From Spirochaetota bacterium (GTDB taxonomy: Bacteria > Spirochaetota > UBA4802 > UBA5550): a stretch of 64,000 bases of DNA. Of this stretch, positions 14,972-32,634 are shown piece after piece. Position 1 is the first letter of the stretch. Each line of letters opens with the position of its first letter. The DNA lies in the NCBI GenBank assembly GCA_050298055.1, contig JBNKTL010000015.1, positions 1 through 64,000 on the forward strand, given 5' to 3'. Both the position numbers and the translations under genes were made by a program. The notes under the pieces were generated by a model. The model was not told the origin of the DNA. It did no database searches and saw only the letters and a program-made list of their open reading frames with translations.

Positions 14972-15005
14972 GGAAGCCCATATTAATTAATATAGCGGTT
15001 CCCTT

Positions 15006-15048
15006 TTGGGTACATATTAAGGTAAAACCGATTTATTGATGTACCCAA
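15006..15048. terminator. Stem-loop downstream of the cyclase operon
   Basis: TTGGGTACAT...ATGTACCCAA 10-bp inverted repeat 35 nt after the stop. Confidence 0.3.
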
Positions 15049-15258
15049 TAGTAATGTTACGGAGGGGTGTAAGAGGGATACCCCCTTTTAATTTTTTTAT
15101 AGTTTCTATGAATTAAAGTATTCTTGTCAATGACCGGAACAGTGGCTATGGCAGGGAACCTGTCATGGTTTCTTGCGGCAATTTCTTCCCATTGATATAC
15201 AGGAAGTTTTTCCTGCTGTGAGAAAACCGCGAAGTATGTTTCCTGAAATTTTAAATAT

Positions 15259-15972
15259 ATGTTTTTTTATATGAGAGATTTTTTTACATTTCTTTTGATT
15301 TCATTTCTCATTGTATTCCCCAATTATATTTTATATGCTGAGGAAGATATTAAAATTGAGAAAAGAAAAGAGAGCAGCTCCACTGAAAAACCTGATCATA
15401 ATAAATGGGACCTCTATACTGGAATAATCCTCGGAACAAACTATACGGCGAATTCCCAGTATAATGCAAAGGGTGGATTTTCACCCCATGTGTTATTACT
15501 TGTCGAATATCCTTTCTTTAAAATGAGTTCTGTTGCTCTGGAATTTGGCTATTTACAGAGGAGATGGGAAATTACCGGCCGGAACAATGAATCCATCGAT
15601 GTGACTACTGACTTTTTTAACATGCAGGTGAATTTGCGTCATCGATTTGAAATTGATCCTGTCCGGCCCTATCTAATTTTTGGTCTTTTTCTGGATACCT
15701 GTTTGAGCGGCAACTTTAACTCAGGAGGTCATGAGTATGATTATGCAGGCGATGAATATATTGACAGGGTGATTTTCGGTATGGTCTGGGGTATAGGCAG
15801 TGAGTACAGTTTTGATAAACGGGGCGATATATTTTTTGAAATCGGATTGTTAATGCCTTTCGGTGATCCGCTTTTGAAAAAAAGCAATGCTGTTTTTGAA
15901 CAGAAAAGGGGTTATTATAAGGATTTTCTTTTTAAAGTTGGGTATAAGTATAATATTGGCGGCCTTTTCTAA
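15259..15972 (+). CDS. Outer-membrane beta-barrel (porin-family-like) protein
   Basis: Signal peptide, alternating amphipathic strands, C-terminal FLFKVGYKY. Confidence 0.7.
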   Translation: MFFYMRDFFTFLLISFLIVFPNYILYAEEDIKIEKRKESSSTEKPDHNKWDLYTGIILGTNYTANSQYNAKGGFSPHVLLLVEYPFFKMSSVALEFGYLQRRWEITGRNNESIDVTTDFFNMQVNLRHRFEIDPVRPYLIFGLFLDTCLSGNFNSGGHEYDYAGDEYIDRVIFGMVWGIGSEYSFDKRGDIFFEIGLLMPFGDPLLKKSNAVFEQKRGYYKDFLFKVGYKYNIGGLF

Positions 15973-16046
15973 AGTTTTTTTCAAATTATTCCGAAGTATT
16001 AATGGGGATATTTGCATTTTTGTGAATTTCCGGAGGTAGGAGTAAT

Positions 16047-18824: not shown

Positions 18825-19019
18825 TTTTTTATCCATCCTCATCCTGCCAAAACTCTTTCCCGGGATTCCGGGAAATCAACTTCTTCTGGGTATTATAACC
18901 TGAAAAACAGGCAAATTATTGCATTTCAGTAATTTTATTAGTTGCCAGCCCGCGAGAGATTCTGTAGAGAACAGATATACAGGTTATCTCTGATATTATT
19001 TTAATTATACGAGGAATAT

Positions 19020-21236
19020 ATGGATATTGAGAAAATGCAGGTTCATGAACTTATCGACCGGGCGCTTTATGCGTCACTGCGTAAGAGATGGGACGAAGCA
19101 CTGGAGTTTGCCCGGGCCGCCCTGGAGAAGGAACCGGAAAATTATCTCGCCCACAAACGCCTGGGGATCGCCCTCTGGTACCTCGAGAGACAGGAGGAAG
19201 CAATTACCTCCCTGAATAGATCCGTTGAGCTGAACCCGGAATTTGCCAGTGCCTACTACAACCTTGCCTGCTTTTACGCTCAAAGCGGTGAGAAAAAGGA
19301 TATGCTGGAGAACCTGAGTAAGGCCATTGAACTGGACAGGTATACCGATTACCGGGAGATGGCCGATGAGGACGGGGATTTCGATCCCTTCCGGGATGAT
19401 GAGGACTTTACTGCTCTTGTGGAATCGGAGAGAAAACAGGGCACTGCCCTTCAGGAGATCTTTGATACCGGTGACTTTGAAGCAATATCCTCCGCTCTCC
19501 TGAAGGTGGGGAATGAGATACCCCTGGAAGCCGTTGACTGGAAAGAGAGGAGGAAAGGGGCCAATATCGTTAAGCTTCTTGAAAATGAAGCTGAAAAGAT
19601 AAGCAGAGAAGCCCTGGAGCATCTCTTTAAAACTGTTTTAAACAATCCTCTGATTAATGATCTCTACGGCTTCTGGGAATTACTAAAGGCCCTCCAGGGA
19701 AAGATGGGGAAAGAATTTGACGTTTTCCTCATTGAGGAATGGAAGAACCGGTACGCCTATACGGACCCGGGGCACCTTACGAGAATTGACCAGGCACTGC
19801 TTCAAAAGATGGGTGAACTTCCGGCGGAAACCAGCGTGAAGGCAGTGATCCGGGGATTGAAATCCCACGGGAAGGACGCCGTGAAGGATTTTCAGTACCT
19901 CTCTTCATCGCTTTTTGAAAAACTGCCTGAAGCCAGTAGTGAACGCACAGAACTTACAGATATCATTGACACCTGTCTCCATGGAGATCTCTATAAGGAT
20001 GAGGCTCCTGACACCAGGGAGAGGAGGGTGCGGCTGGCCCTGCCGGCGCCAAACCTTGATGTTTCCGGAGACCCCGATGATGACTGGGCCCGGGAGAAGG
20101 CGGCACTGGCGCATTTTCATCCCGACCTTGTTATCAACGCGGCATCACAGATGGCCATACAGAGTAATCATCCTGAGATCGTTGAGTTGGCCAGGGAGAG
20201 TGTTCCGAAACTCTGCGGGTTTGCCGTTGATGAGGGCCTGCCGGTGAACACACGGATCGATGCCATCAAGCTCATAGAGAGTCTTGGGGACGATAGTGTT
20301 GCCCCTCTCCTGGCACCGGCCCTCCGGGACAGGTCATTCCGGCTTCTTGAAGCCCTGGGGGAACTCCTCCACCGGTTCAACAGGGCCCCCGTAGAAGCTA
20401 AAGCCGCCGTTGATTATTTAATTGCCGCTGCTGAAGAACATAAGGACAATTCCGATGAGCTCTATCACATTGTCAGCGCCATCAGGTGGTTCCCGGATGA
20501 GCGGGCAGCAGGGGTCCTGGTATCGCAGTTAAGTAATAGCCGGGAAGCAGTCCGCCGGGAAGCCCTTAAGGGCCTGGGGATACAGAAGGCGGTAAGCGCG
20601 ATACCTGATATGGTAAAACAGCTCCAGGAGGGTGAGGAACAGTGTGTAACCGCCGCTGCCAGGGCCCTTGCTGCCATGGGGGGTGAAGCGGGGAAAGAAC
20701 TGGAGGATGAAGATAACTACAACTCTGTCCTCAAGGAAGCGGAAAGATCTCCCCGGTGGGCCATTGAAGCCCTGAATTACTTTGCTCTGGAAAGGGTGAA
20801 TGACGATCTCCTGAGGCTCTTCAAAACAACAGATGAGTTCGAGGCCTTTGAGCACCTGGCCCGGGGGCTGGCTGAGCGGGCCAGGGAAGAGATCATTCCG
20901 GAACTTGTGGGGCTGGGGCTGGACCGCTACAAGGGAGGAGACCGGGCGGGACGGGATTATCTTACAATTTTACGTTCTATTGCCAGGGCCCATCCTTTGG
21001 GGCCTGATGAAGGTATGATGAAAAAGGTGAAGGAGATACTCTCCCGGGGGAATAAAGAGGATATTCTTGAGTTTGCCGAGAGCATGAAGGATGACGCCAG
21101 GTACGCGGACATGAAAGATCCTTCAAAAGAAGAAGAGGAAGCGGAGAGGAAATACCGGGAGGCGTTTATCGGCTTTATGAAACCGGCTGGCTCAGAAGCA
21201 GAAGCCCTGGCAGAGGCCATGTTCACTGTGGAGTAA
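19020..21236 (+). CDS. TPR plus HEAT-repeat protein
   Basis: N-terminal TPRs ending AYYNLACFYA; C-terminal HEAT/PBS-like repeats (VRREALKGLG, AAARALAAMG); GAGGA RBS. Confidence 0.8.
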   Translation: MDIEKMQVHELIDRALYASLRKRWDEALEFARAALEKEPENYLAHKRLGIALWYLERQEEAITSLNRSVELNPEFASAYYNLACFYAQSGEKKDMLENLSKAIELDRYTDYREMADEDGDFDPFRDDEDFTALVESERKQGTALQEIFDTGDFEAISSALLKVGNEIPLEAVDWKERRKGANIVKLLENEAEKISREALEHLFKTVLNNPLINDLYGFWELLKALQGKMGKEFDVFLIEEWKNRYAYTDPGHLTRIDQALLQKMGELPAETSVKAVIRGLKSHGKDAVKDFQYLSSSLFEKLPEASSERTELTDIIDTCLHGDLYKDEAPDTRERRVRLALPAPNLDVSGDPDDDWAREKAALAHFHPDLVINAASQMAIQSNHPEIVELARESVPKLCGFAVDEGLPVNTRIDAIKLIESLGDDSVAPLLAPALRDRSFRLLEALGELLHRFNRAPVEAKAAVDYLIAAAEEHKDNSDELYHIVSAIRWFPDERAAGVLVSQLSNSREAVRREALKGLGIQKAVSAIPDMVKQLQEGEEQCVTAAARALAAMGGEAGKELEDEDNYNSVLKEAERSPRWAIEALNYFALERVNDDLLRLFKTTDEFEAFEHLARGLAERAREEIIPELVGLGLDRYKGGDRAGRDYLTILRSIARAHPLGPDEGMMKKVKEILSRGNKEDILEFAESMKDDARYADMKDPSKEEEEAERKYREAFIGFMKPAGSEAEALAEAMFTVE

Positions 21237-21249
21237 AAAGTCAGCCGGC
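21178..21249. repeat. Left island-boundary direct repeat (HEAT gene 3' end plus a tRNA-3'-like fragment)
   Basis: tgaaaccgg...ccctggcagaggccatgtt..tgtggagtaaaaagtcagccggc matches 32290-32356 imperfectly. Confidence 0.8.
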
Positions 21250-21441: not shown

Positions 21442-22014
21442 ATGTACTATTTACTGGATATCACAAGCCGCCCGCGGCGCATAATTGGCGACACACCATT
21501 TATCGATGAGGTATGCTGGTGGGAGGGAGCGGTCATTACCGAGTCCATACCCGATCCGCTCCCTTTTGAGCTTGACCCATACGAGCCTGATTCTCCCGAT
21601 GAAGACCAGTACATGGCTGTATTCATTGAGACTGATCCTCCTCTCTGGCGGGATGACTTCATCCAGGCCCTTCGGGACTGCGGGGTCAAGAATTTTGACG
21701 TCTACAATGCGGCCGTCACCGATCCCGACGACGGCACCATTCATACTAACTACAAGGCGGTGAATATCCTGGGACTTGTTGACGAGGCTGATATGGAGAA
21801 ATCTATCGCAGCGGCCAATGACGGGATACCCCTGACCGATGTGGATTTTAACGGGCCGGTGGTGGATGAGAAAAAAACTGAAAAGATCCGGATGTTCCGG
21901 CTGGCGGAATCCACCGACTCCATCCTGGTGCATGAAAAATTACGCGACGCTTTGGTGGAAAAGGGTTTCGGCACCGACCTGGCTTTTTATGACCTGGATG
22001 ATGCGGCTCTTTAA
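21442..22014 (+). CDS. Imm11/DUF1629-like immunity protein (paralogue 1)
   Basis: MYY start after AGGAG; ALRDCGVKNF, YKAVNILGLV, MFRLAES..ILVHEKL. Confidence 0.8.
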   Translation: MYYLLDITSRPRRIIGDTPFIDEVCWWEGAVITESIPDPLPFELDPYEPDSPDEDQYMAVFIETDPPLWRDDFIQALRDCGVKNFDVYNAAVTDPDDGTIHTNYKAVNILGLVDEADMEKSIAAANDGIPLTDVDFNGPVVDEKKTEKIRMFRLAESTDSILVHEKLRDALVEKGFGTDLAFYDLDDAAL

Positions 22015-22087
22015 CGAAAAATCCTTTACCGGCGTGAAGCTTATTGAAGCCGGTAAATGGGACAGCTTTGCCGGGCGGAAAAAGAGT
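22006..22087 (+). pseudogene. 3' remnant of an Imm11-like gene (copy 2)
   Basis: Translates LFNEKSFTGVKLIEAGKWDSFAGRKK; imperfect direct repeat of 21254-21335. Confidence 0.55.
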
Positions 22088-22182
22088 GATCACCGGTTGT
22101 GCGAAGGGTTTTTCTGTTGACAGAAAGCCCTTTACCGGTGCCGGTAATTTAAATCTATTTCTGATAATCGGAGGATCAGGCA

Positions 22183-22746
22183 ATGTTCTACATACTTGAG
22201 CCTGAAAAGGTGCCGGGAAAAACCCCGCATGCATCACTTACCCGGGAACGGGGAGTTCTTGCTTCTTTTTGGGTCCGGGGCCGTCAGGTTGACCCGTCGG
22301 AGCTGAAGTTGCCCCTGGAGATATCGTGTGAGAAGTACTGTGTAAATTATCCGGATCTCATGGACGTGGGGCTGGCTGCAGCCTGTTCTCCCCGCTTCAA
22401 AAAAGTCATAGAGGAGTCGGTTGCGGATAATATACAATTTTTCCCCGTGCTGATCCAAGATGGATCGGGAAATGTCCGGGACGATTATTTTCTTTTTAAC
22501 GTCATCGGGCGGGTAAGTGTAGTGGATATGGATGCCTCCGACTACACTGACTTTGAGGGAGAAATCTTTCGCCTGAACTCCCTGGCTCTTCGCATAGACA
22601 TTCCCCATCTGGATATGTTAAGAGTTGACGAATACGACGAACTCATCATTGTTTCGGAGCGGATTCGCCATCACCTGGAGGCGGCAGCTTTGACCGGTGT
22701 GCGTTTGGTCCCGGCTGAGGGATGGAACGATCATCACCGGTTTTAG
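22183..22746 (+). CDS. Imm11/DUF1629-like immunity protein (paralogue 2)
   Basis: YPDLM, DNIQFFPV, YFLFNVIG, MLRVDE...IIVSERI; GGAGG RBS. Confidence 0.8.
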   Translation: MFYILEPEKVPGKTPHASLTRERGVLASFWVRGRQVDPSELKLPLEISCEKYCVNYPDLMDVGLAAACSPRFKKVIEESVADNIQFFPVLIQDGSGNVRDDYFLFNVIGRVSVVDMDASDYTDFEGEIFRLNSLALRIDIPHLDMLRVDEYDELIIVSERIRHHLEAAALTGVRLVPAEGWNDHHRF

Positions 22747-23086
22747 CCAACACGTCTCAGTTGCCAGGACTTTACTGCAGCCTGAAGAAGGCGATGCGGT
22801 GTTGTCTATTAACAAAAGTTGTCCCGGTGCAAATCGAATCACTGTTGACAGAAATAATCTGGAATATAATGATTAATGAAAATTTTTCTTGAAAATACCT
22901 GGCTTTAAAATTACGGTATTTTGATGAGGCATCTAAGATGCTTTTATGAGCATCAGATTTAAGCGCCGTATGGCAGCTTCAGGGAAAATTACAGGTGTCA
23001 CTATTCAACACTGAAAATCCGGGATAGTTTGGGTTTTATTCCACAGGCAAAGCCGGATCTTCGTATGCACAAAAGGAGAAAATAAA

Positions 23087-23386
23087 ATGAAAATATTGGA
23101 ATCCTGGGAGTTTGCTGAAATCCACAACGCCTTCAGAGCTAAGCTGAGAAAATTAACCGATGATTTCGAAGAGGCGATAGACGAAAGCGACAGAGACGCA
23201 CTGCCGGACTTCATTACCCGGGCAAATGAGCTGATCGAGGAATACCACAGAACAGCTGAAGATTTAGCGCAATATGGCACCGGCATTAAAAAGACGCAGT
23301 TTCTGGAAAACCATGAAGAAGATATTGATTATCTCAAAGATCAGATTGGGCAGGCAAAAGAAAAGCTGGAGCAAGCTGCCGGGTAA
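23087..23386 (+). CDS. Hypothetical acidic helical protein (99 aa) inside the island
   Basis: AAGGAG RBS; clean ORF; no recognisable family. Confidence 0.65.
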   Translation: MKILESWEFAEIHNAFRAKLRKLTDDFEEAIDESDRDALPDFITRANELIEEYHRTAEDLAQYGTGIKKTQFLENHEEDIDYLKDQIGQAKEKLEQAAG

Positions 23387-23531
23387 CGGACATATACAAT
23401 GACCCGGCAGTGAGGTGTGTTAACTCTCCTCGCTGCTTATGACAAAGAGATATCCTGATTGTCAGAAGAGACGCATGCAGCTCCTGAAAACAGGATCTGT
23501 TTTGAAGCTGAGCAAATCATATGGGGACGCA

Positions 23532-24089
23532 ATGTACTATTTTCTTAACTGCTTTGGACCGCGCGATCGTGATCGTGCCAGCCTCACCAATATTCCGCAG
23601 TTTGACGGCGTATACTGGAATATGGGCGAGAGGATCACTCAGGAGTTACCTTGCCCGATTCATATTGACCTTTATACCGATGAAGGTGATGCAATGGTGC
23701 CGATGTTTCACGCCGGTATTCTGCTGATGGAAAAGAAGATGGTGGAAGCGATCGTGGGTGCCGGGGTGGATAACTTGCAGCTATTCACTGCAATTCTGCA
23801 TGACAGGGAAAACGGCATAGATTACGATCATTATTACGCAGTCAATATTGTTGGCCTGGTTGCCTGTGTCGATTTTGATCAATCCGATTACACTGCTCAC
23901 GGTGAACCGCTGATCGATGTGGATTTCGATGGATTGACCATTGACGAATCCAGAACTCATGAAAAGTATATATTTCGTCTGGCGGAAAGTGTCTCCGGTA
24001 TAGTGGTGCATGAAAAGATAAAATCTGCCCTTGAATCAGCCAGGATTCCATATTTAGATTTTATTCTACCGGAAGATTGGATTGGATGA
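23532..24089 (+). CDS. Imm11/DUF1629-like immunity protein (paralogue 3)
   Basis: MYY start; AGVDNLQLF, YYAVNIVGLV, IFRLAES..IVVHEKIK. Confidence 0.82.
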   Translation: MYYFLNCFGPRDRDRASLTNIPQFDGVYWNMGERITQELPCPIHIDLYTDEGDAMVPMFHAGILLMEKKMVEAIVGAGVDNLQLFTAILHDRENGIDYDHYYAVNIVGLVACVDFDQSDYTAHGEPLIDVDFDGLTIDESRTHEKYIFRLAESVSGIVVHEKIKSALESARIPYLDFILPEDWIG

Positions 24090-24205
24090 GATCATTCAGG
24101 CTATGACGAATCCGATCCGGATTTGGTTGATTGGTGATAAGAGAATGCACTTGCCCGGGCTCATGCTGGGGGAGTGTCCGATCTGTTGTTTTCACCAGGT
24201 ATTGT

Positions 24206-24802
24206 TTAAATCCTCTGGTTTTTACCGAAATTGTCGCTATTTTTATCTCTAACGCTTAACAATATCCCCCACCCCTTTGATGGGGCCGTTGAGATCAAAT
24301 GGTCTATAATCCTTTGATGCGCAATCAACTCTAAAGGATTTTCAGCTAACCTGAAGAGGAGGAAACCTCTGGCTTTTTCCGGGTCAATAACTATATTTTG
24401 AAACCCGGCGAATGGAAGACCGCCGGGCCGTTCTCCAATTTCAATATACTCGGATTCTGAAAGGTCAGCTGCAGATACCTTACCTATAACATTGATAGCA
24501 AAGTAGTCCTTCCACTTTATGTTGCCATCAATGTCTTCCACTACGGCAGGAAAGGCTTGTATATTATCGACTCCCGCCAATCGGAACTCATTCAAAAGCG
24601 CCTTCGACCAGACAGGTAGAGATGCTCTACCCATATATTCGCGGGGTAGATTATCATCGTCACAGTTGCTCCGAAAAAGCAAGGGGGCATCCGGTTGCCA
24701 GTTGATGAAAGCACCTCGCATGAAAGAGATGTCGTTAGGGAATTTTGGATCACCAATGATTCCCCTTTCGTTAAATGGATCGGCTTCAATTGAGTAGTAC
24801 AT
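24206..24802 (-). CDS. Imm11/DUF1629-like immunity protein (paralogue 4)
   Basis: AGVDNIQAFPA, YFAINVIG, LFRLAENP, GWGI. Confidence 0.82.
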   Translation of the reverse strand: MYYSIEADPFNERGIIGDPKFPNDISFMRGAFINWQPDAPLLFRSNCDDDNLPREYMGRASLPVWSKALLNEFRLAGVDNIQAFPAVVEDIDGNIKWKDYFAINVIGKVSAADLSESEYIEIGERPGGLPFAGFQNIVIDPEKARGFLLFRLAENPLELIAHQRIIDHLISTAPSKGWGILLSVRDKNSDNFGKNQRI

Positions 24803-24918
24803 TGCACACCCTGTTATTTATACTGGAAAAGATCTCTTGCCTTGTTATGATTATCCTATTCCAGTATTGCATACTGATCTGCTTCATAATCGGATCCACT
24901 CAGGATGATCATTAAACT

Positions 24919-25476
24919 TTATTCGGACAATGAGCGAAAGCTCAGGTATTTGAAATCCCTGCTGTCCAGATGTTCCTTTATTTTTTCATGAACAATAATT
25001 GAGGATACGGATTCGGCAAGCCGGAAGATGTATAATCCCTGAGTTTTGGAAGCATCAATGACAAGCTTTCGAAAAGCAACGGCAAATGTTCCCGTTCCGG
25101 TCATATCGGTGTATTCGGATTTATCCATGTCTGCACATTTTACCAGTCCGATAATATTTACCGCAAAATATTCCCTGTCGACGGGGTTTCCGTCTCTCTC
25201 AGTAATTTCAGCGGGAAAAACCTGCAGATTATCCACCCCGGTTTCCTTCAACGCCTCCACCAGTTCTTTGCTGAAAAGCGGAATTGAGTCCAGCAGTATT
25301 TCTGCCAGGCCCCGTCCGCCATTCTGCCAGAATTCAACAGTGATTGGCTCCTCATTTTTTCCCATTTCCTGACCTGTTATCCAGCGGGATGCTTTAAACA
25401 TAAACTCGCTTACAAGAGAACTCGTTCTGTATGCGATTGGCTTAACAGAATAATCTGTTTCTAATAAATAATACAT
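24919..25476 (-). CDS. Imm11/DUF1629-like immunity protein (paralogue 5)
   Basis: MYY start after AAGGAG; PLFSK.L, GVDNLQVFPA, YFAVNIIGLV, IFRLAES..IIVHEKIK. Confidence 0.82.
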   Translation of the reverse strand: MYYLLETDYSVKPIAYRTSSLVSEFMFKASRWITGQEMGKNEEPITVEFWQNGGRGLAEILLDSIPLFSKELVEALKETGVDNLQVFPAEITERDGNPVDREYFAVNIIGLVKCADMDKSEYTDMTGTGTFAVAFRKLVIDASKTQGLYIFRLAESVSSIIVHEKIKEHLDSRDFKYLSFRSLSE

Positions 25477-25538
25477 GTGGCCGACTCCTTTACTATTATA
25501 TTTTGCTCTTCCGCCATTCAAAAGATTGCCATACCATT

Positions 25539-26102
25539 TCAAAAACCATCATAGTCACGGGTATTGCGAAGGCGTATCCCTTCAAGACCGGCAGACTCTA
25601 TGGCTTCCTTAATGGTTTCATCAATGATGATTAACATCTGTTCCCCATGTGGGCGGAAAATCTTTGCTCCATCCGTTTTTTTCGGGTCAATTACCAGTGA
25701 TTCCCAATCATACTCCTCCAGGTAGTCATCATATTCTCCGATACTCTCTTCCTCATCGATGCAGTCCATCAAACCGATTATGTTGGCCAGCCAGTACTTC
25801 ATGCCGGCTCTGCTTCCTGTTTCCTGATCGATCATGTCCACCTCATAGTACTGGATGTTGTCAACCCCAAGTTGATCAAGTAAGGTTTTGAGCCTGTCTG
25901 AAAACAGCGGAAGCAGGAAAGTGACGGCATCGGGGAAAACGATGCCCTTAACCGTCTTGATCTCTATTGTTACGGGGATGTGGGAAATTTCTTTCTCACT
26001 TCCCGTGAGGAATTCCAGGGCATCCAGGTTTCCGGGCACTTTCTTGATCACAGGCATATCTGTGCGCTGTGTGTCCTGTTCTAAAATATAGTATTCCGGC
26101 AT
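25539..26102 (-). CDS. Imm11/DUF1629-like immunity protein (paralogue 6)
   Basis: FPD...PLFSDRLK, GVDNIQYY, YWLANIIG, IFR...IIIDE.IK. Confidence 0.82.
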   Translation of the reverse strand: MPEYYILEQDTQRTDMPVIKKVPGNLDALEFLTGSEKEISHIPVTIEIKTVKGIVFPDAVTFLLPLFSDRLKTLLDQLGVDNIQYYEVDMIDQETGSRAGMKYWLANIIGLMDCIDEEESIGEYDDYLEEYDWESLVIDPKKTDGAKIFRPHGEQMLIIIDETIKEAIESAGLEGIRLRNTRDYDGF

Positions 26103-26185
26103 TATGCTGTTCTCCTTGAAAATTTTTAAGGCGGCAGCGGATACTTAAAACGGTACGCCTGCCGCCTTACTCCCCGCACTCCCTT

Positions 26186-26770
26186 TTAAACAACATCCAC
26201 TTCTTCTACGACTATTCCCCATCCGCCTTCTGGTCTGTATTTTATCAGGGCATTGTCGATGCGCTCGCTGATAATGATGCGCATGGGTTGTTCGGCGAGC
26301 CGGAACATGTCTATATCACCCACCTGATCGCCATTGATGGCCAGCGACTTAAAAGCGAGCAGCGGCAGCGGTGCATGAATCCCCTCCGGGTCGCCGCCCA
26401 TCAATGTATCGTACTTCGATGCCTCCAGATTGGCGACCTTCATCAACCCAAGAACATTGAACAGAAAATAGTCATCCCGTTTTTCACCGGTTTCCGGATT
26501 GATTAATTGCGCGGGAAATGCCTGAAAGTTATCGACTCCAATCTTTTTAAGCAGGTCGATGAGTGATTTGCTGGCAAGCACCGTACCCCCGGTGAGGAAA
26601 TGCGGCATTGGTTCGCCCACGGGAAAGTCGTGCTCGAAAACCAGCGGTGGTAACTTGGTGGGGTCTATCATGCTGCCCGACGTTACGCTCTGCTCATATC
26701 CCAGCTTTGGCGCCTTTCTGAGGCCGTAATTCACGTAATTACTGGATCTCATTTTGAAATATTTCTTCAT
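26186..26770 (-). CDS. Imm11/DUF1629-like immunity protein (paralogue 7)
   Basis: GVDNFQAFPA, YFLFNVLG, MFRLAEQP..IIISERI, GGWGI. Confidence 0.82.
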   Translation of the reverse strand: MKKYFKMRSSNYVNYGLRKAPKLGYEQSVTSGSMIDPTKLPPLVFEHDFPVGEPMPHFLTGGTVLASKSLIDLLKKIGVDNFQAFPAQLINPETGEKRDDYFLFNVLGLMKVANLEASKYDTLMGGDPEGIHAPLPLLAFKSLAINGDQVGDIDMFRLAEQPMRIIISERIDNALIKYRPEGGWGIVVEEVDVV

Positions 26771-26858
26771 CGTTCAGTTCTCTTGTGGTTGTACACCGGT
26801 TTGTGATAGTTCATCGTCTCTGCGGAAAGAAAGATCCTCCATTTGTTTACCGCAATCG

Positions 26859-27449
26859 CTAAATCATCACCCAATCTTCCGGAGCGGTAAATCCAAAGGT
26901 ATTAATACCGGCAGCCTCAATTGTGTTTTTCAATTCCTCACTCACAAGCGTTGTCATCACATTTTCCGCCAGGCGAAACAACTTGACACCATGAGTTTTA
27001 CTCTTATCAACGGTAAAACCGTTAATGCCGCTATTAATCAAAAGCGCACCATCATTGTTTTTAATCTTTGATTGACTAAAGTCAACAGCACTTATTAAAC
27101 CAAGAATATTAAAGGCAAACCAATCGTACTTCTCCTCGGTGCCTCTGTAGCTAATCACAGCCGGATAGTAGTGAATATTATCAACACCTGAACTTTCAAG
27201 CAATTTTTTCAGACGGGGCGACATCAATGAAATTGCATCGTCGTAATAATCCGGCGGAGGCCCGGAATATCCAAAATGCGGCGTTGCTTCGATTAAAATC
27301 GTTTTTGCCGGCGGGTCCTCCAGTGCAGCTCCCGTATGCCAGCCGCAGCGGGGGTTGGTGATTAATTCCTCATGTATTTCTAAAAACGGGGCATCATCTT
27401 CATCTTCATCAATGCCGGGATTATCCAAATCATTGATCACATAATACAT
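26859..27449 (-). CDS. Imm11/DUF1629-like immunity protein (paralogue 8)
   Basis: PPDYY, LMSPRLK, GVDNIHYYPA, FAFNILGLI, LFRLAEN...LVSEELK. Confidence 0.82.
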   Translation of the reverse strand: MYYVINDLDNPGIDEDEDDAPFLEIHEELITNPRCGWHTGAALEDPPAKTILIEATPHFGYSGPPPDYYDDAISLMSPRLKKLLESSGVDNIHYYPAVISYRGTEEKYDWFAFNILGLISAVDFSQSKIKNNDGALLINSGINGFTVDKSKTHGVKLFRLAENVMTTLVSEELKNTIEAAGINTFGFTAPEDWVMI

Positions 27450-27592
27450 ATAAAAACTCCTGGGGAGATAATTCTCATATTCGGCTGGAAGTATAAAAAC
27501 CGAGGATGAATCGTTTTTCTTGAGGGTGAAGCCGTCATGCTTTTTATTCTTGAGATATTTTTGAACAGGAAACGTCTCTCAGTTGAGCCGTT

Positions 27593-28168
27593 CTAAATAC
27601 CATATCCATCGTAGTTCCTTGTGTTTTCCAAAACCACACCCTTTAATCCGGCATCAGCCAGGGCTGTGTAAACCCTTTCGCTGAGAATGATTAGACTTCC
27701 ATCCTCATGGAGACGGAAAATCTCGGCGCCCATGGTACGTTGTTCGTCTATGGTGAAAGACTTAAAATCGAAACCATCACCGAACACGTCTTCCTCGACG
27801 TCAGAATGTTCTACATCCAGGCAGCTTATGCGGCCGATGATATTGGCCAACCAGTAGTCTGTATTGATGGTTTCTGATTTGGCATCCATTAACGCAACCG
27901 GGAAGTATTGAATATTCTGGATACCGCAGGCATCCAGGCATTTTTTCACTTTGTTGGAAAACAGAGTGAACAGACTGTTAAATACATCCGGGTAAAAATC
28001 CCCGCCGGTTGGAGTCAGTGCGATATTAATAGAACCGGGAGCTGGCGAGAGAATCTCGCCGCTGAGCAGTGTGACTGGATCCAATTCAATATCAGAATTA
28101 ACCTTGCCCAGGACCGCCGAATTTTCGAGAGTAACTATTCTCTGGTTTATAAAGTAATATTCAGTCAT
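27593..28168 (-). CDS. Imm11/DUF1629-like immunity protein (paralogue 9)
   Basis: YPDVF, GIQNIQYFPV, YWLANIIG, IFRLHE...IILSERV. Confidence 0.82.
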   Translation of the reverse strand: MTEYYFINQRIVTLENSAVLGKVNSDIELDPVTLLSGEILSPAPGSINIALTPTGGDFYPDVFNSLFTLFSNKVKKCLDACGIQNIQYFPVALMDAKSETINTDYWLANIIGRISCLDVEHSDVEEDVFGDGFDFKSFTIDEQRTMGAEIFRLHEDGSLIILSERVYTALADAGLKGVVLENTRNYDGYGI

Positions 28169-28213
28169 ATCAATTAGCCTTTTTTGATTTTTTTCTGCAT
28201 AATCCAGAGCGCT

Positions 28214-28775
28214 TCAAAAGCCGTCATAATCACGTGTGTTACGAAGGCGTAAGCCTTCAAGATTGGCGGACTCGATGGCGTTCTTAATGGTTTCATCAAT
28301 AATGATGAGCATCTGCTCGTCAGTGAGCCGGAATATCTTTACTCCATCCGTTTTCTGCGGGTCAATTACGAATGATTTCCAATCATACGTTTCAAGTATT
28401 TTGTTATATTTACCGTCACTCTGCTCCTTATCGATGCAATCGATCAAACCGATTATGTTGGCCAGCCAGTACTTAATGCCGACTTTGCTTTTTGTTTCAT
28501 GATTGATCATATCGACTTCATAGTATTGGATGTTTTCTACTCCCTGTTGATCAAGGATCGCTTTGAGTTTGTCTGAAAACAACGGAAGCATGAAAGTGAT
28601 GGCATCAGGAAAAACGACTCCGTTAACCGTCTTGATTTCTATTGGTACGGGGGTGTGGGCAATTTCTTTCTCACTTCCAGTGAGGAATTCCAGGGCATCC
28701 AGGTCCCCGGGAACTTTTCTGACCACAGGCATATCCGTGCGGGGTATCCTGCTCCAGGATAAAATATTCCGCCAC
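28214..28775 (-). pseudogene. Imm11/DUF1629-like immunity protein (paralogue 10), frameshifted near codon 12
   Basis: The GTG at 28775 follows AAGGAG and reads VAEYFILEQDT, like paralogue 6 (MPEYYILEQDT), but lies 43 nt rather than 45 nt before the shared ATG at 28732. A net 2-nt loss falls at a C-run. The rest (28214-28732) is an intact ORF. Confidence 0.7.
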
Positions 28776-28852
28776 TATCTGTTCTCCTTGTATATTTTCA
28801 GGGGGCGGGTATGTAAAACGCTACGTTTCCGGATTACTCCCCGCGCTCTCTT

Positions 28853-29434
28853 TTAGACAACATCAACTTCTTCCACGATGATTCCCCATCCACCCTCCGG
28901 CCGGTATTTCACCAGGGCATCGTCAATGCGCTCGCTGATTATGATAGTAATGGGCTCCTCGGCGAGCCGGAACATGTCAGCATCACCCACCTGATTTCTA
29001 TTGATGGTAAGTTTTTTGAAAGCAACCAGGGGCGCATCAATGCCCTCCGGGTTGCCGTCCATCAATCCATCGTACTCTGATTTCTCCAGGTTGGCAACCT
29101 TCATAAGTCCAATTACATTGAACAGAAAATAGTCATCCCGCTTTTCACCGGTTTCCGGGTTGACTAATTGCGCCGGAAAGGCCTGGAAGTTATTGACGCC
29201 AATCCTGGTGAGCAGGTCAATGAGCGTTTTGCTGGCGAGTACCGTGCCCCCCGTCAGGAAATGCGGCATTGGTTCACCCCGGGGAAAGTCGTGCTCGAAA
29301 ATGAGCGGCGGCAATTTTGTGGGGTCTATCATGCTGCCCGACATTTCGCTCTGCTCATCGTCTATTTCCGGCACCTTTGTAAGGCCGTAATCTACGTAGT
29401 TATCGTCTTCCAGTTTAAAATATTTTTTCATCAT
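28853..29434 (-). CDS. Imm11/DUF1629-like immunity protein (paralogue 11)
   Basis: Close paralogue of 26186-26770 (shared GSMIDPTKLPPL.FEHDFP.GEPMPHFLTGGTVLASK, KYRPEGGWGI.VEEVDVV). Confidence 0.82.
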   Translation of the reverse strand: MMKKYFKLEDDNYVDYGLTKVPEIDDEQSEMSGSMIDPTKLPPLIFEHDFPRGEPMPHFLTGGTVLASKTLIDLLTRIGVNNFQAFPAQLVNPETGEKRDDYFLFNVIGLMKVANLEKSEYDGLMDGNPEGIDAPLVAFKKLTINRNQVGDADMFRLAEEPITIIISERIDDALVKYRPEGGWGIIVEEVDVV

Positions 29435-29505
29435 TCTCTTACCTCGCAGGTTTCACCGTTTTTTGATAGTTCCTTGCGTATTTCGAAAGAAAGATCTTTC
29501 ATGAT

Positions 29506-30408
29506 TCATTTATCCCGGTTAAAGAGATCCCATCTCTGTGCGATCTCCTCTTTAATTGTCTCTCTTTCATCATCTGTTAAAACAGACTCAAAATGATCCA
29601 GTTCTTCGGTTCTCCATTTCATATAATATTCTTTCGAATCATTGAGCAGTTCTTTCCCATGAGCAGTTGATTCATAATCAAGAAACTCCCGGGTAATGTC
29701 TTTCAGAAAAACCGTTCTGTTTTCCTTCAGTTTTATATATCTGTCAAGACCGTTATCAAGAAATTCTTTAAACTGTTGAGTCCCTCCCTGTCCGCAGCAA
29801 CTTACATTTCTCGCAATTGCAAGACGGGAAGTTTCTTTACACCAGCCATATTTATCAATGATCTCCTTAATGTGCCATTGTTGCTCGACTTCATGATCCA
29901 GGTCGTTTGTTCTTAAGAAATTTATATAATCAGGGATCCACTTTTTATCTCGATGAACAAGACTCAGGATAGCGTATGTTCCCGCAGGAGGACCTTCGCC
30001 GTACTCATCAGCTATCCAGATTCGTGTTCCTTCTTCCCCATCATCTGTTACCCTGCAATAATCCAGGACTTTAGAGGCCAGGAAATCATGCTTTGATACA
30101 TTTTCAAAAAATTCTTTTTCCTCGAGGTTTTGAATATTTCCCTTTTCATCGCTGAATTCTATTACAAACTTCATGCTTTCCAGCCTGTTATTGTGATGAT
30201 ATATCACATCAGTTTGTTCATCAGGATAGAGTGCTTTTATTTCCTTTACAGAAGAAATCATGGCTTCAAGGATCCGTTCCAGATCACCCCCTGTTAACCA
30301 TTCATCTGATGCATCTTTATCTAAGATTTTCTTCCGGTTGATTTCTTTGCTGTCATAATCATCACCGGTGCAACCGTAGGCATTTATTAATATTTTTATT
30401 TTATTCAT
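29506..30408 (-). CDS. Hypothetical protein inside the island (possibly a second immunity family; weak resemblance to DUF6138)
   Basis: ~300-aa acidic ORF; GTYAILSL...YINFL...DLDHEV.Q...I..II.KYGW motif. Family guess is from memory only. Confidence 0.55.
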   Translation of the reverse strand: MNKIKILINAYGCTGDDYDSKEINRKKILDKDASDEWLTGGDLERILEAMISSVKEIKALYPDEQTDVIYHHNNRLESMKFVIEFSDEKGNIQNLEEKEFFENVSKHDFLASKVLDYCRVTDDGEEGTRIWIADEYGEGPPAGTYAILSLVHRDKKWIPDYINFLRTNDLDHEVEQQWHIKEIIDKYGWCKETSRLAIARNVSCCGQGGTQQFKEFLDNGLDRYIKLKENRTVFLKDITREFLDYESTAHGKELLNDSKEYYMKWRTEELDHFESVLTDDERETIKEEIAQRWDLFNRDK

Positions 30409-30493
30409 AGCAATACTATCCAATATTTGTTTTTAATAAATTCCGCTGAGTATCAACTACATAAAGCCCGCTCTGCTTTTAACATTAATGATA

Positions 30494-31048
30494 TTAAAAT
30501 CTATGGGCATCATTCCATCCATCTGCCTGTCTCATTTCACATCCGGTTATCAGATGATTTGACAGTGTGTTTTTCAATCTCTCAGATATAAAGATTATAT
30601 CCTGGTACTCATCTGCGCGGAACATATCAGGCGCGCCATCAGGCAAATTTAACTTTAAACTGAAAACTCTTGCGATCACCGGGCCAAATGTAGAGCAATC
30701 AGTATTCTCCCTATCGAAACATTGCATACGGCCAACTACATTAAGTAAAAAACGGTCTTTAATGACAGAATCTTCAAAGCGGACTTCCACGGGAAAACTC
30801 TGATAGTTCTCCACACCAGACTCATTAAGTGCGTCTAAAAACCTCCGGTTTACCAGGGGAGCGCCGCCGACTTCCAGGTAGTCGGGCAATTCAATTGCGG
30901 CAGACTCCACCTCTATGAATAACTCCCCGCCGGTGAGGCCGGAAGGAAGAAGATCACCTTTCAGGAAATCCAGCCCAAATCCGCCATCTCCTTCATAAAC
31001 AAGGTGGGAAACTAATTCTACCGGCTTTGATTCCAATACATAGTACAT
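30494..31048 (-). CDS. Imm11/DUF1629-like immunity protein (paralogue 12)
   Basis: MYY start after AGGAG; LPDYL, GVENYQSFPV, LLNVVG, MFRADE..IIFISERLK; ends GWNDAHRF like paralogue 2 (GWNDHHRF). Confidence 0.82.
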   Translation of the reverse strand: MYYVLESKPVELVSHLVYEGDGGFGLDFLKGDLLPSGLTGGELFIEVESAAIELPDYLEVGGAPLVNRRFLDALNESGVENYQSFPVEVRFEDSVIKDRFLLNVVGRMQCFDRENTDCSTFGPVIARVFSLKLNLPDGAPDMFRADEYQDIIFISERLKNTLSNHLITGCEMRQADGWNDAHRF

Positions 31049-31061
31049 AATTCGCTCCTGT

Positions 31062-31634
31062 TTATATCTCATCAATGGGAAAACATGAAATTTGCCACTT
31101 GTCTCCTTTGGGGTTCGGATTATTATCGAGAGCATATAAAAGTTTTTCATGAACGATTATTATACCGGGTTGTTCTGCAGGTCGAAAAATCAGTTTATCC
31201 TGCGTCTTGCCTGGATCAATAACAAGCTTTTGAAATTTATAAAGGGGTGTTGCATCGCCGGGACGTTTTGCAATTTCAGTTACTGAGGAGGCATCAATAT
31301 CAGCACAGGCTATTTTACCGATAATATTTACTGCGAAATAATAATCCCAGACCTGTTTTGCTTTTTCATTGATCAAAACAGCGTCAAACAGCTGCAAATT
31401 ATCAACCCCGCATTTTTCAAAGACATTTACCAAACCCTCAGAGAATGCGGGTACGCTGATCCCCATCACAGCCCCCGGCGGGTCATCGGAAGGGTTATCA
31501 ACCAAAAACCTCATTGGTTCTTGGAATTTTTGAGTTAATTGATCCCCCGATGTGAAAAATACCCCAACCGGAACTTCAGGATCTTTTACTGTCCCAAAAT
31601 CAGAATAAATATATTCTTTTATACGATAATACAT
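31062..31634 (-). CDS. Imm11/DUF1629-like immunity protein (paralogue 13)
   Basis: CGVDNLQLF, YFAVNIIG, IFRPAEQP.IIIVHEKL. Confidence 0.82.
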   Translation of the reverse strand: MYYRIKEYIYSDFGTVKDPEVPVGVFFTSGDQLTQKFQEPMRFLVDNPSDDPPGAVMGISVPAFSEGLVNVFEKCGVDNLQLFDAVLINEKAKQVWDYYFAVNIIGKIACADIDASSVTEIAKRPGDATPLYKFQKLVIDPGKTQDKLIFRPAEQPGIIIVHEKLLYALDNNPNPKGDKWQISCFPIDEI

Positions 31635-31646
31635 ACAATCAGGTTC

Positions 31647-32195
31647 TCAAATGCCGTCGTATTCCTCAGTCGGTTGCAAAAGTACCGCCGACCATTCATG
31701 TTTCATAAGCTCTTCCGCAATCTCCCGGGACACAACAATGAAGCCGGGTCCGTTTTGCAACCTGAAAAAACGGGCGCCATTTACTTTGTTCTCATCAATC
31801 ACAATCGTGCCGGTAAAATAAGGTCTCTTTAACCTGAGGCGATATTCGGAATTCTCCAGGTCAACCGCGTCAATAGAGCCGATGACATTCACCGCAAAGA
31901 AGCCCTGGTACTTTTTGCCCTTATCGTTGAGGGTCACGGGATAGCGGTCAATGTTATTTATCCCCAGGCTCTCCAGGAAAGTCAAAAGTTTTTCCGACAT
32001 CACGGGGATGGTAGTGTCAAAGAAATCGGGGAAAACCGTGCCGTAGCTTGAGTCCAGGATCAGCTCCTGGGGAGCGAGTGGTTTTTCAAAAGCCTGTCCG
32101 GCAATCCAGTTCAGCTCACCGGTTTCCTTCATATGCCCGGCTATCTCGATTATGTTTTGCGCTTTAAACAGGTCCTGCCTGAGAAAATAGTACAT
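31647..32195 (-). CDS. Imm11/DUF1629-like immunity protein (paralogue 14)
   Basis: FPDFF...PVMSEKL, GINNIDRYPV, FFAVNVIG, FFRL...IVVSREI. Confidence 0.82.
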   Translation of the reverse strand: MYYFLRQDLFKAQNIIEIAGHMKETGELNWIAGQAFEKPLAPQELILDSSYGTVFPDFFDTTIPVMSEKLLTFLESLGINNIDRYPVTLNDKGKKYQGFFAVNVIGSIDAVDLENSEYRLRLKRPYFTGTIVIDENKVNGARFFRLQNGPGFIVVSREIAEELMKHEWSAVLLQPTEEYDGI

Positions 32196-32289: not shown

Positions 32290-32356
32290 TGAAACCGGTA
32301 TGCTCCGAATGCCCCTGGCAGAGGCTATGTTTTGTGGAGTAAAAAAATCAGCCAGC
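32290..32356. repeat. Right island-boundary direct repeat overlapping the tRNA-Thr 3' end
   Basis: tgaaaccgg...ccctggcagaggctatgttttgtggagtaaaaaaatcagccagc; degenerate copy of 21178-21249. Confidence 0.8.
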
Positions 32357-32422
32357 AAGCGGAATCGAACCGCTGACCTGCTCATTACGAGTGAGCTGCT
32401 CTACCATCTGAGCTATGCTGGC
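32350..32422 (-). tRNA. tRNA-Thr (anticodon CGT)
   Basis: GCCAGCATAGCTCAGATGGTAGAGCAGCTCACT-CGT-AATGAGCAGGTCAGCGGTTCGATTCCGCTTGCTGGCT: 73-nt cloverleaf, CCA not encoded. Confidence 0.97.
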
Positions 32423-32544: not shown

Positions 32545-32634
32545 CCTCCTTCGTGAGCTTTGTTTAGACCTCTTCAGCTCAAAAGAAAATTAATACTTGA
32601 AGAAAAAAAAGCTCTCTGCTCTATTGTGAATATA

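What the first reader, a model, noticed from the sequence alone, without database searches (positions are those of the whole stretch)
21442..32195. Toxin-free array of 14 diverged Imm11/DUF1629-like immunity genes at tRNA-Thr: candidate acquired poly-immunity bank
Seen: 14 ORFs of ~182-198 aa (3 on +, 11 on -, convergent) share an M-x-Y/YY/YF start, PD/P.hS, G(V/I)xN(I/L/F)xxFP, Y(F/W)xxN(I/V)(I/L)G and FRLxE...hhh(S/H)E. Otherwise they are highly diverged. They fall into about four subgroups: GWND.HRF ends (2, 12), YDG ends (6, 9, 10, 14), GWGI/W-type ends (4, 7, 11, 13) and the rest (1, 3, 5, 8). I saw no intact toxin, Rhs/PAAR/T6SS or integrase gene in the 64 kb. Established: Imm11 (PF07791, formerly DUF1629) genes normally sit singly just downstream of HNH-fold (e.g. 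AHH) nuclease effectors. Inference: this is a nearly single-family library of orphan antidotes collected against many competitors' nuclease toxins. It parallels poly-immunity loci and Bacteroidales acquired-defence arrays, but in a probable spirochaete.
Basis: partly seen in the sequence, partly recalled or inferred. Interest (0 to 1): 0.88.

Follow-up and report, generated by a model that had tools for sequence, protein, structure and literature searches.

The report
Toxin-free antidote gene bank in spirochaete
This spirochaete keeps 14 different versions of one antidote gene side by side, with no matching toxin found in its genome, most likely to survive DNA-cutting toxins injected by unrelated bacteria; such banks are a known kind, but here two genes still carry the cut-off end of the toxin gene they once followed.

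Summary
Confirmed: 14 Imm11 (PF07791) genes lie beside tRNA-Thr; 13 pass Pfam's cut-off, one (g10) is frameshifted, and two unrelated ORFs sit inside. They form 12 lineages interleaved with genes of other phyla (single clade rejected, p 1e-32). Homologues sit behind AHH nucleases in 39 of 58 named loci. No AHH toxin, VgrG, DUF2169 or PAAR-like gene was found in this 98%-complete Spirochaetota genome, which holds 14 more full-length Imm11 genes. New evidence: spacers before g7 and g11 retain the last 19-24 codons of an AHH toxin of the clade their tree position predicts; a predicted complex of g9 with a foreign AHH toxin scores 0.92 (best control 0.24); paralogue pairs are under purifying selection; a decayed 74-column repeat bounds the array; related strains differ in content. 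Best reading: an acquired, maintained orphan-immunity bank, grown partly by local duplication. The kind is known: Zhang et al. 2012 already list homogeneous Imm11 polyimmunity loci. It is not rAID and not an integron. Function and capture mechanism are untested. The scan's notes showed no earlier record of this array.

The parts
19020..21236 (+). TPR + HEAT-repeat protein (738 aa), left flank; its 3' end forms the left copy of the boundary repeat
   Evidence: Pfam; no full-length homologue in 120 genomes of the class, only weak HEAT hits
21178..21249 (.). Left boundary repeat: end of the TPR/HEAT gene plus a short stretch like the tRNA 3' end (att-like, inferred)
   Evidence: 77% over 74 columns with 32290-32356, E 3.4e-6 against the genome
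21246..21335 (+). 3' tail (29 codons) of a lost Imm11 gene
   Evidence: score 81 against Imm11 C-termini, shuffles 31.0 +/- 4.5; 76-nt repeat with 22006-22081
21442..22014 (+). g1, Imm11 (190 aa)
   Evidence: Pfam 13.5 bits, below cut-off; homologues to 75%
22004..22090 (+). second 3' tail of the same lost Imm11 type
   Evidence: score 54, shuffles 29.9 +/- 3.3
22183..22746 (+). g2, Imm11 (187 aa)
   Evidence: Pfam 45.5 bits
23087..23386 (+). 99-aa helical ORF, no family; travels with g3 (77% copy on contig C4)
23532..24089 (+). g3, Imm11 (185 aa); 83% copy on C4; 50% to a toxin-linked gene
24206..24802 (-). g4, Imm11 (198 aa)
   Evidence: Pfam 34.1 bits
24919..25476 (-). g5, Imm11 (185 aa)
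   Evidence: Pfam 47.2 bits
25539..26102 (-). g6, Imm11 (187 aa); duplicate of g10
   Evidence: Pfam 74.8 bits; 76%
26186..26770 (-). g7, Imm11 (194 aa); duplicate of g11
   Evidence: Pfam 46.2 bits; 79%
26767..26841 (-). last 24 codons of an AHH nuclease gene; its stop overlaps the g7 start
   Evidence: best genome-wide hit of the AHH profile, E 0.52; z 15 against the toxins of the three nearest toxin-linked relatives
26859..27449 (-). g8, Imm11 (196 aa)
   Evidence: Pfam 52.6 bits
27593..28168 (-). g9, Imm11 (191 aa); 66% to a gene directly behind an AHH toxin
28214..28775 (-). g10, Imm11, frameshifted near 28741 in this strain
28853..29434 (-). g11, Imm11 (193 aa)
   Evidence: Pfam 46.9 bits
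29439..29498 (-). last 19 codons of an AHH nuclease gene
   Evidence: z 9.4 against the toxins of the three nearest toxin-linked relatives
29506..30408 (-). 300-aa ORF, no family; 80% copy on C24; homologues in marine Flavobacteria and Psychromonas, one fused to WGR
30494..31048 (-). g12, Imm11 (184 aa)
   Evidence: Pfam 33.5 bits
31062..31634 (-). g13, Imm11 (190 aa)
   Evidence: Pfam 36.5 bits
31647..32195 (-). g14, Imm11 (182 aa), first gene of the minus arm
   Evidence: Pfam 45.3 bits
32290..32356 (.). Right boundary repeat: decayed copy of the TPR/HEAT gene end abutting the tRNA 3' end
32350..32422 (-). tRNA-Thr(CGT)

Best explanation
A homogeneous Imm11 polyimmunity locus: a bank of orphan antidotes against AHH-family (HNH-fold) DNases that other bacteria inject with T6SS-type systems. 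Each protein would bind the nuclease of one toxin lineage in the cytoplasm. Shown: family identity; many separate lineages; toxin linkage of homologues; no toxin or delivery genes found here; toxin 3' ends before g7 and g11; purifying selection; local duplication. Inferred: the genes came from toxin-immunity pairs or from orphan arrays of other bacteria, cut just inside the toxin end (which holds the start signal of the immunity gene); they accumulated beside the tRNA by illegitimate or short-homology recombination, perhaps helped by an integrase acting from elsewhere; they are expressed and protective.
For: Pfam 13 of 14; MXAN_0049 structure E 6e-19. 32 of 49 co-oriented upstream genes of homologues hit AHH and 7 more toxins were found in 26 held-out loci; those toxins follow VgrG, DUF2169 or Tox-PAAR-like genes in the loci scanned. 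One-clade hypothesis rejected. g7/g11 nest among toxin-linked genes (99/95) and g9 is sister to two toxin-linked genes (100/99). Toxin ends before g7 and g11 match the toxins of that same clade. No AHH by three profiles, no PF13665, PF05954 or PF09937 with ringing controls. dN/dS 0.18, 0.25, 0.22 for g7/g11, g6/g10, g3/C4 copy. Predicted complex g9 + L186 toxin: 0.92 against best control 0.24; the mark was reached by 116 of 157 solved and 2 of 215 mismatched pairs; runs share at least 72% of contacts, partner pLDDT at least 89. Predicted interface is 19 of 32 identical to the toxin's own antidote but 5 of 32 to g6 and 2 of 32 to g14. The region is absent at this place in 8 of 10 relatives examined.
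Against: No bench test and no expression data. Significant toxin ends in only 2 of 12 Imm11 spacers tested in the array, both from one duplicated unit; g6 and g9 are borderline (p 0.06, 0.055). Best identity to a toxin-linked gene is only 33-50% for 13 of 14. GC and GC3 are like the rest of the genome and no more varied than ordinary blocks, so there is no compositional sign of recent transfer. Close cousins of a true partner also pass the complex test (10 of 12 colicin pairs) and my own alignments were used. g8 and g14 are closest to orphan genes of another spirochaete family, so part of the set may be old within the phylum. Zhang 2012 marks spirochaete Imm11 as AHH-associated, so some spirochaetes do carry such toxins. 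The assembly has 199 contigs. g10 is broken here.
Confidence: 0.75

Rival explanations
1. Graveyard of the lineage's own weapons: an ancestor carried an AHH toxin at the head of the array, new toxin-immunity pairs displaced old toxins one after another (the Vibrio displacement model), and the last toxin and its secretion system were later lost.
For: Displacement leaves an effector 3' end before an orphan immunity gene (Kirchberger 2017, passages). The same ends occur before orphans in toxin-headed arrays of gammaproteobacteria (L075 twice, L103). 11 genes run head to tail.
Against: No toxin of this AHH type in 401 genomes of the phylum (the sister profile A3 rang in a Myxococcus genome) while 23 of 401 have Imm11. 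No VgrG, DUF2169 or PAAR-like gene here. Nearest toxin-linked relatives lie in several phyla. Duplicates stayed under purifying selection.
Confidence: 0.1
2. One or a few block transfers of ready-made orphan arrays from a T6SS-bearing donor, followed by local duplication and deletion, rather than gene-by-gene collection. Function would be the same; only the history differs.
For: One decayed repeat bounds the whole array. Orphans with toxin ends already exist in other taxa (4 of 30 spacers). Uniform GC3. A 2.67-kb duplicated unit.
Against: No donor array with this gene set was found; the largest foreign arrays seen hold 4-5 similar genes. The 8-gene array of a relative has different members (24-43% identity). 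Related strains differ by single genes.
Confidence: 0.3
3. The family has been put to another use in this lineage (for example a general inhibitor of phage or mobile-element HNH nucleases), and toxin defence is no longer the job.
For: 28 full-length copies in a genome without cognate toxin; orphan copies in other spirochaetes with no toxin end (0 of 17 spirochaete spacers).
Against: Neighbours in the other islands are also immunity-type genes (SUKH+ankyrin, WGR-LRR, ankyrin). The predicted toxin-binding face of g9 is kept. A search of viral contigs with g7 found no relative.
Confidence: 0.07
4. Cognate toxins exist in an unassembled part of the genome or belong to a nuclease family my profiles miss.
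For: 199 contigs, 1869 withheld bases; the PF14412 genome search had no ringing control; two Rhs proteins are present.
Against: 98.3% complete; neither Rhs protein has an AHH/HNH match or an Imm11 neighbour; one or two toxins could not explain 12 lineages.
Confidence: 0.05

Closest known systems
Homogeneous polyimmunity loci, Imm11 type (Zhang et al. 2012, PMC3482391; section 39 read whole, other passages)
   Same: Tandem, distantly related paralogues of one immunity family with no toxin gene; Imm11 is named there as forming such loci; content varies between strains.
   Different: Two convergent arms, not one orientation; several loci in one genome; extended loci were then reported only from proteobacteria, bacteroidetes, firmicutes and actinobacteria; toxin 3' ends and a tRNA-side boundary repeat are not described in what I read. 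Its Additional File 1 was not visible and may list spirochaete cases.
AHH-Imm11 pairs of Myxococcus xanthus, MXAN_0050/MXAN_0049 (PMC12077181 commentary text read; PMC12077131 passages; PDB 6A4C)
   Same: Same immunity family; one strain holds 20 imm11 genes; cross-protection reported at 46% identity.
   Different: There the genes sit at 14 toxin loci, at most 1-2 extra per locus; here 14 in a row and no toxin.
AID and rAID-1 of Bacteroidales (bioRxiv 10.1101/471110 passages; 10.1101/2025.05.03.651265 abstract)
   Same: Orphan immunity arrays with genes from diverse organisms, shown there to protect.
   Different: rAID needs a 5' XerD-like recombinase, low GC and repeated intergenic motifs; none is present here. 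rAID arrays are mixed-family.
Immunity arrays by effector displacement in Vibrio cholerae T6SS clusters (PMC5361080 passages)
   Same: Orphan immunity genes in tandem with an effector 3' end left behind.
   Different: Those arrays are headed by an intact effector in a T6SS cluster.

Membership tests
Imm11 (PF07791) | Score above the Pfam gathering cut-off | tested here: met
   13 of 14; g1 below cut-off at E 0.044
Imm11 (PF07791) | Homologues directly downstream of AHH/HNH nuclease toxins | tested here: met
   39 of 58 named loci; loci were found with patterns from g3, g4, g5, g7, g13 only
Imm11 (PF07791) | Binds and neutralises an AHH nuclease | not testable with these tools
   Only a predicted complex for g9 (0.92 vs control 0.24)
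Homogeneous polyimmunity locus (Zhang 2012) | [quoted passage not shown] | tested here: met
   14 of 16 ORFs
Homogeneous polyimmunity locus (Zhang 2012) | [quoted passage not shown] | tested here: met
   No toxin ORF; only 19-24-codon ends without the catalytic region
Homogeneous polyimmunity locus (Zhang 2012) | Short spacers, same orientation | tested here: inconclusive
   Spacers 12-340 nt; each arm is co-oriented but the two arms converge
Homogeneous polyimmunity locus (Zhang 2012) | Content differs between strains | tested here: met
   Contig joints skipping g1 in two studies and g2-g3 in one contig, laid at 85% likeness
rAID-1 | 5' XerD-like tyrosine recombinase | tested here: not met
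   7 PF00589 matches in the genome, none on this contig
rAID-1 | Repeated intergenic motif and low GC | tested here: not met
   Spacers share sequence only within duplicated units; GC like the genome
Integron / CALIN cassette array | attC sites between genes | tested here: not met
   Loose pattern in 1 of 17 spacers against 3 of 6 in the genome's own integron-like locus on C43; Rfam found only the tRNA
Polymorphic toxin locus with orphan CT-immunity modules | Intact toxin at the head and whole toxin domains before each immunity gene | tested here: not met
tRNA-targeted genomic island | Direct repeat of the tRNA 3' end at both ends, integrase, empty site in relatives | tested here: inconclusive
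   Decayed repeat present; no integrase; relatives lack the region but also have the tRNA elsewhere

The most novel reading that the evidence does not exclude
A spirochaete lineage that does not make these toxins keeps collecting antidote genes one at a time from the injecting bacteria of several other phyla and stores them at a tRNA hot spot with no recombinase of its own, so that the array is a running record of the toxins met in its habitat and a natural library of AHH-inhibitor specificities.
Probability: 0.25. Interest if true: 0.75.

Novelty: new variant of a known kind. Interest (0 to 1): 0.52.

Why it matters
Orphan-immunity defence has been shown by experiment mainly in gut Bacteroidales, among kin that use the same weapons. 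This case points to cross-phylum defence in a free-living spirochaete, against one toxin family, with a sequence scar that ties two genes to a specific donor clade. It gives named toxin-antidote pairs (g9 with the L186 toxin; g7/g11 with the L063, L097, L101 toxins; g3 with the L156 toxin) for the open question, raised in the 2025 mBio commentary, of what extra imm11 genes do and how far Imm11 cross-protection reaches.

Tried and rejected
Integron or repeat-punctuated cassette array: rejected. Compositional sign of foreign origin: none. Toxin ends before the other genes: 10 of 12 Imm11 spacers in the array and 10 of 11 elsewhere in the genome were not significant; C4a reached p 0.016 in the all-toxin test only, with a non-matching toxin; a by-eye likeness before g8 did not hold. 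Promoter/terminator scan: 24 and 15 sites, as in shuffles. No RNA holder listed. The X3 joint 22004 to 21248 is read as repeat ambiguity, not a tandem copy. Viral contigs with g7: nothing. Atlas searches for the 300-aa and 99-aa ORFs: no usable hit. Single-sequence fold of the 300-aa ORF: pLDDT 42, unusable. RpsB against the PDB did not place the organism. Cluster membership and source names of the ten closest representatives could not be looked up, so the owners of the 46-87% homologues are unknown. The PF14412 genome search had no positive control. Earlier scan notes: nothing on this array by words, place or sequence.
Full report
Observation. The 14 ORFs are present as described, g1-g3 on the plus strand and g4-g14 on the minus strand. 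Thirteen pass the Pfam Imm11 cut-off; g1 scores 13.5 bits. A profile of the 14 finds one solved structure, MXAN_0049 (6A4C, E 6e-19), which the 2025 commentary describes as the immunity protein of the AHH nuclease MXAN_0050 (PMC12077181). Median pairwise identity is 28%; the only pairs above 40% are g6/g10 (76%), g7/g11 (79%) and g3/g5 (41%). g6-g7 and g10-g11 form a unit repeated at 2.67 kb. g10 is two bases short near 28741 relative to g6; contigs of two other studies (X3, X6) carry two more bases there, while X2 of the source study agrees with the window. A 99-aa and a 300-aa ORF of no known family sit inside the array; each has a 77-80% copy elsewhere in the genome.

Organism. Related strains were laid from sediment metagenomes of two studies.

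The rest of the genome. It holds 32 matches: the 14, 14 further full-length genes (12 over the Pfam cut-off) and 4 partial matches from 3 genes. Clusters on C4 and C49 mix Imm11 with WGR, WGR-LRR and ankyrin genes; C30 has a SUKH-ankyrin gene nearby. Three solitary copies lie 0.7-1.4 kb from other tRNAs. So the window holds the largest of several banks.

Is there a cognate toxin? PF14412 found none, without a ringing control. I therefore built a profile from 32 AHH toxins found upstream of homologues. It recovered 7 more toxins in 26 held-out loci and no toxin among 171,797 frames of this genome. A second profile from 16 other upstream genes, mostly toxins of Myxococcota, also found nothing. 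Tox-PAAR-like, VgrG-type and DUF2169 genes are not found, with controls ringing. Two Rhs proteins exist but show no AHH/HNH match and have no Imm11 neighbour. In one sample of 401 genomes of the phylum, 23 have Imm11 matches and 0 have this AHH type (profile A3 rang in a Myxococcus genome). This covers one AHH subfamily only: Zhang 2012 marks spirochaete Imm11 as AHH-associated.

Origin. A scan of GTDB with patterns from 5 of the 14 genes gave 58 named loci. Of 49 co-oriented upstream genes, 32 hit AHH; with the 7 above, 39 of 58 loci have the toxin. In the loci scanned these toxins follow VgrG, DUF2169 or Tox-PAAR-like genes. A 60-row tree (the 14 window genes and 46 rows chosen as near relatives from a larger set) splits the window genes into 12 lineages, and holding them together is rejected (AU p 1.5e-32; with 8 other genes of the genome 2e-77). 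g9 is sister to two toxin-linked metagenome genes at 65-66% identity (100/99); g3 to a toxin-linked Myxococcota gene (100/90); g12 to a Cellvibrio one (99/80); g7/g11 nest among toxin-linked genes (99/95). g8 and g14 are closest to orphan genes of another spirochaete family; g1, g4, g5 and g13 are weakly placed. Best identity to any of 54 toxin-linked genes is 33-50% apart from g9. I did not test a root or a donor for any single gene.

Toxin scars. The best genome-wide hit of the AHH profile (E 0.52) is the spacer before g7, at the profile's C-terminal end. Against the last 60 residues of 38 toxins this spacer scores 79 (shuffles 29.9 +/- 3.7) and its four best matches are the toxins of the clade in which g7 sits; the g11 spacer scores 53 (28.9 +/- 3.4). 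With 49 pairs and 23 spacers, only these two are clear; g6 and g9 are borderline. The toxin frame stops on the g7 start codon, as in the intact pair L063. Such ends also precede 4 of 30 orphan genes in other genomes, three of them in toxin-headed arrays. So the scar shows descent from a toxin-immunity pair but not whether this lineage did the cutting. Retention because the end holds the start signal is my inference.

Selection and predicted binding. dN/dS is 0.18 (g7/g11), 0.25 (g6/g10) and 0.22 (g3/C4 copy). Of 26 listed strain differences inside genes, 18 fall on third positions (only 40 of 1071 differences were shown). The predicted complex of g9 with the L186 toxin scores 0.92 against a best control of 0.24; the mark was reached by 116 of 157 solved and 2 of 215 mismatched pairs; runs share at least 72% of contacts and partner pLDDT is at least 89. 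No AHH toxin structure was found by sequence, so memory of a like complex is less likely, but close cousins of a true partner also pass, and the result supports binding without showing it. The predicted interface is identical at 19 of 32 positions to the toxin's own antidote, 5 of 32 to g6 and 2 of 32 to g14, against 28-40% elsewhere in those proteins, as expected if paralogues differ in specificity.

Boundaries and mobility. 21178-21249 and 32290-32356 match at 77% over 74 columns (E 3.4e-6): the end of the TPR/HEAT gene plus a tRNA-like tip on the left, a decayed copy against the tRNA 3' end on the right. This looks like a duplicated target site (inference; tRNA 3'-end integration is recalled knowledge). 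No tyrosine recombinase lies on the contig and attC-like sites are not a feature. In 8 of 10 relatives the orthologue of 32560-35145 lies within about 1.3 kb of an orthologue of a gene left of 14971; the tRNA lies elsewhere in 4 of 5, so no clean empty site was seen. Two tails of a lost Imm11 gene flank g1. Contigs of related strains skip g1 (X3, X6) or g1 to g3 (X3 record 8); they were laid at 85% likeness and could come from a sister species. One genome of the same family has its own 8-gene Imm11 array about 9 kb before rpsB, with different members and no tRNA; 34 of 40 relatives have no match. GC3 varies no more than in ordinary blocks of 14 genes.

Comparison. Zhang et al. 2012 defined homogeneous polyimmunity loci and named Imm11 among them; they also noted an excess of immunity genes in Treponema denticola. 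This locus meets that definition except for its two convergent arms. It works like AID/rAID but fails rAID's recombinase and repeat tests. It shares the scar of the Vibrio displacement model but lacks the head toxin. Full-text searches for Imm11 + immunity (8 papers), DUF1629 (4), orphan immunity + Leptospira (0), polyimmunity + spirochaet (1) and orphan immunity + tRNA + genomic island + AHH (0) showed no description of such a bank in a spirochaete; Zhang's Additional File 1 was not visible.

Verdict. A new variant of a known kind; interest 0.52. Its value lies in its size, its host, the traceable scars and the testable toxin-antidote pairs.

Noticed in passing
G000:C4:44606-58178 (L043) and C49:13039-20137 (L044): Two further mixed banks: Imm11 with WGR, WGR-LRR and ankyrin genes; C4 repeats the 99-aa ORF + g3 pair, C49 has a duplicated Imm11 + 115-aa pair (dN/dS 0.15).
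   Followed up: partly
G002:C1:22329-30446 (L052): Independent 8-gene Imm11 array in another genus of the family, in the same chromosomal neighbourhood before rpsB, no tRNA, no toxin ends detected.
   Followed up: partly
G000:C43:957-7681 (L148 in part): Integron-like locus: interrupted integrase-like gene followed by oppositely oriented genes with attC-like sites in 3 of 6 spacers; a second integron-integrase-like gene on C63.
   Followed up: partly
G000:C8:14987-20866 and C72:298-5598: Two Rhs proteins with C-termini of no Pfam family; the C72 one is followed by an SH3 protein and two tyrosine recombinase genes.
   Followed up: partly
window 26774-26842 and 29433-29504, minus strand: In a shifted frame both toxin ends form short open frames of about 23 codons from an ATG at the same position, ending at or just before the Imm11 start; could couple translation or be chance.
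   Followed up: no
window 14972-21236: Outer-membrane beta-barrel, FG-GAP repeat protein and TPR/HEAT protein are also missing at this place in relatives, so the variable region is about 17.5 kb, wider than the array.
   Followed up: partly
L075:2380-7039, L103:1324-2583, L098:1-697: Orphan Imm11 genes with AHH toxin 3' ends in Kangiellaceae, another gammaproteobacterium and Marinomonas; L090 (Nonlabens) has 4 tandem Imm11 without toxin.
   Followed up: partly
window 21978, run X2: A contig of depth about 98, far above the local 5-10, matches the 3' end of g1 and runs on into other sequence; unexplained.
   Followed up: no
L130, L132, L175-L179: Imm11-like domains within 417-442-aa proteins in a spirochaete genus and in Myxococcota; not examined.
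   Followed up: no
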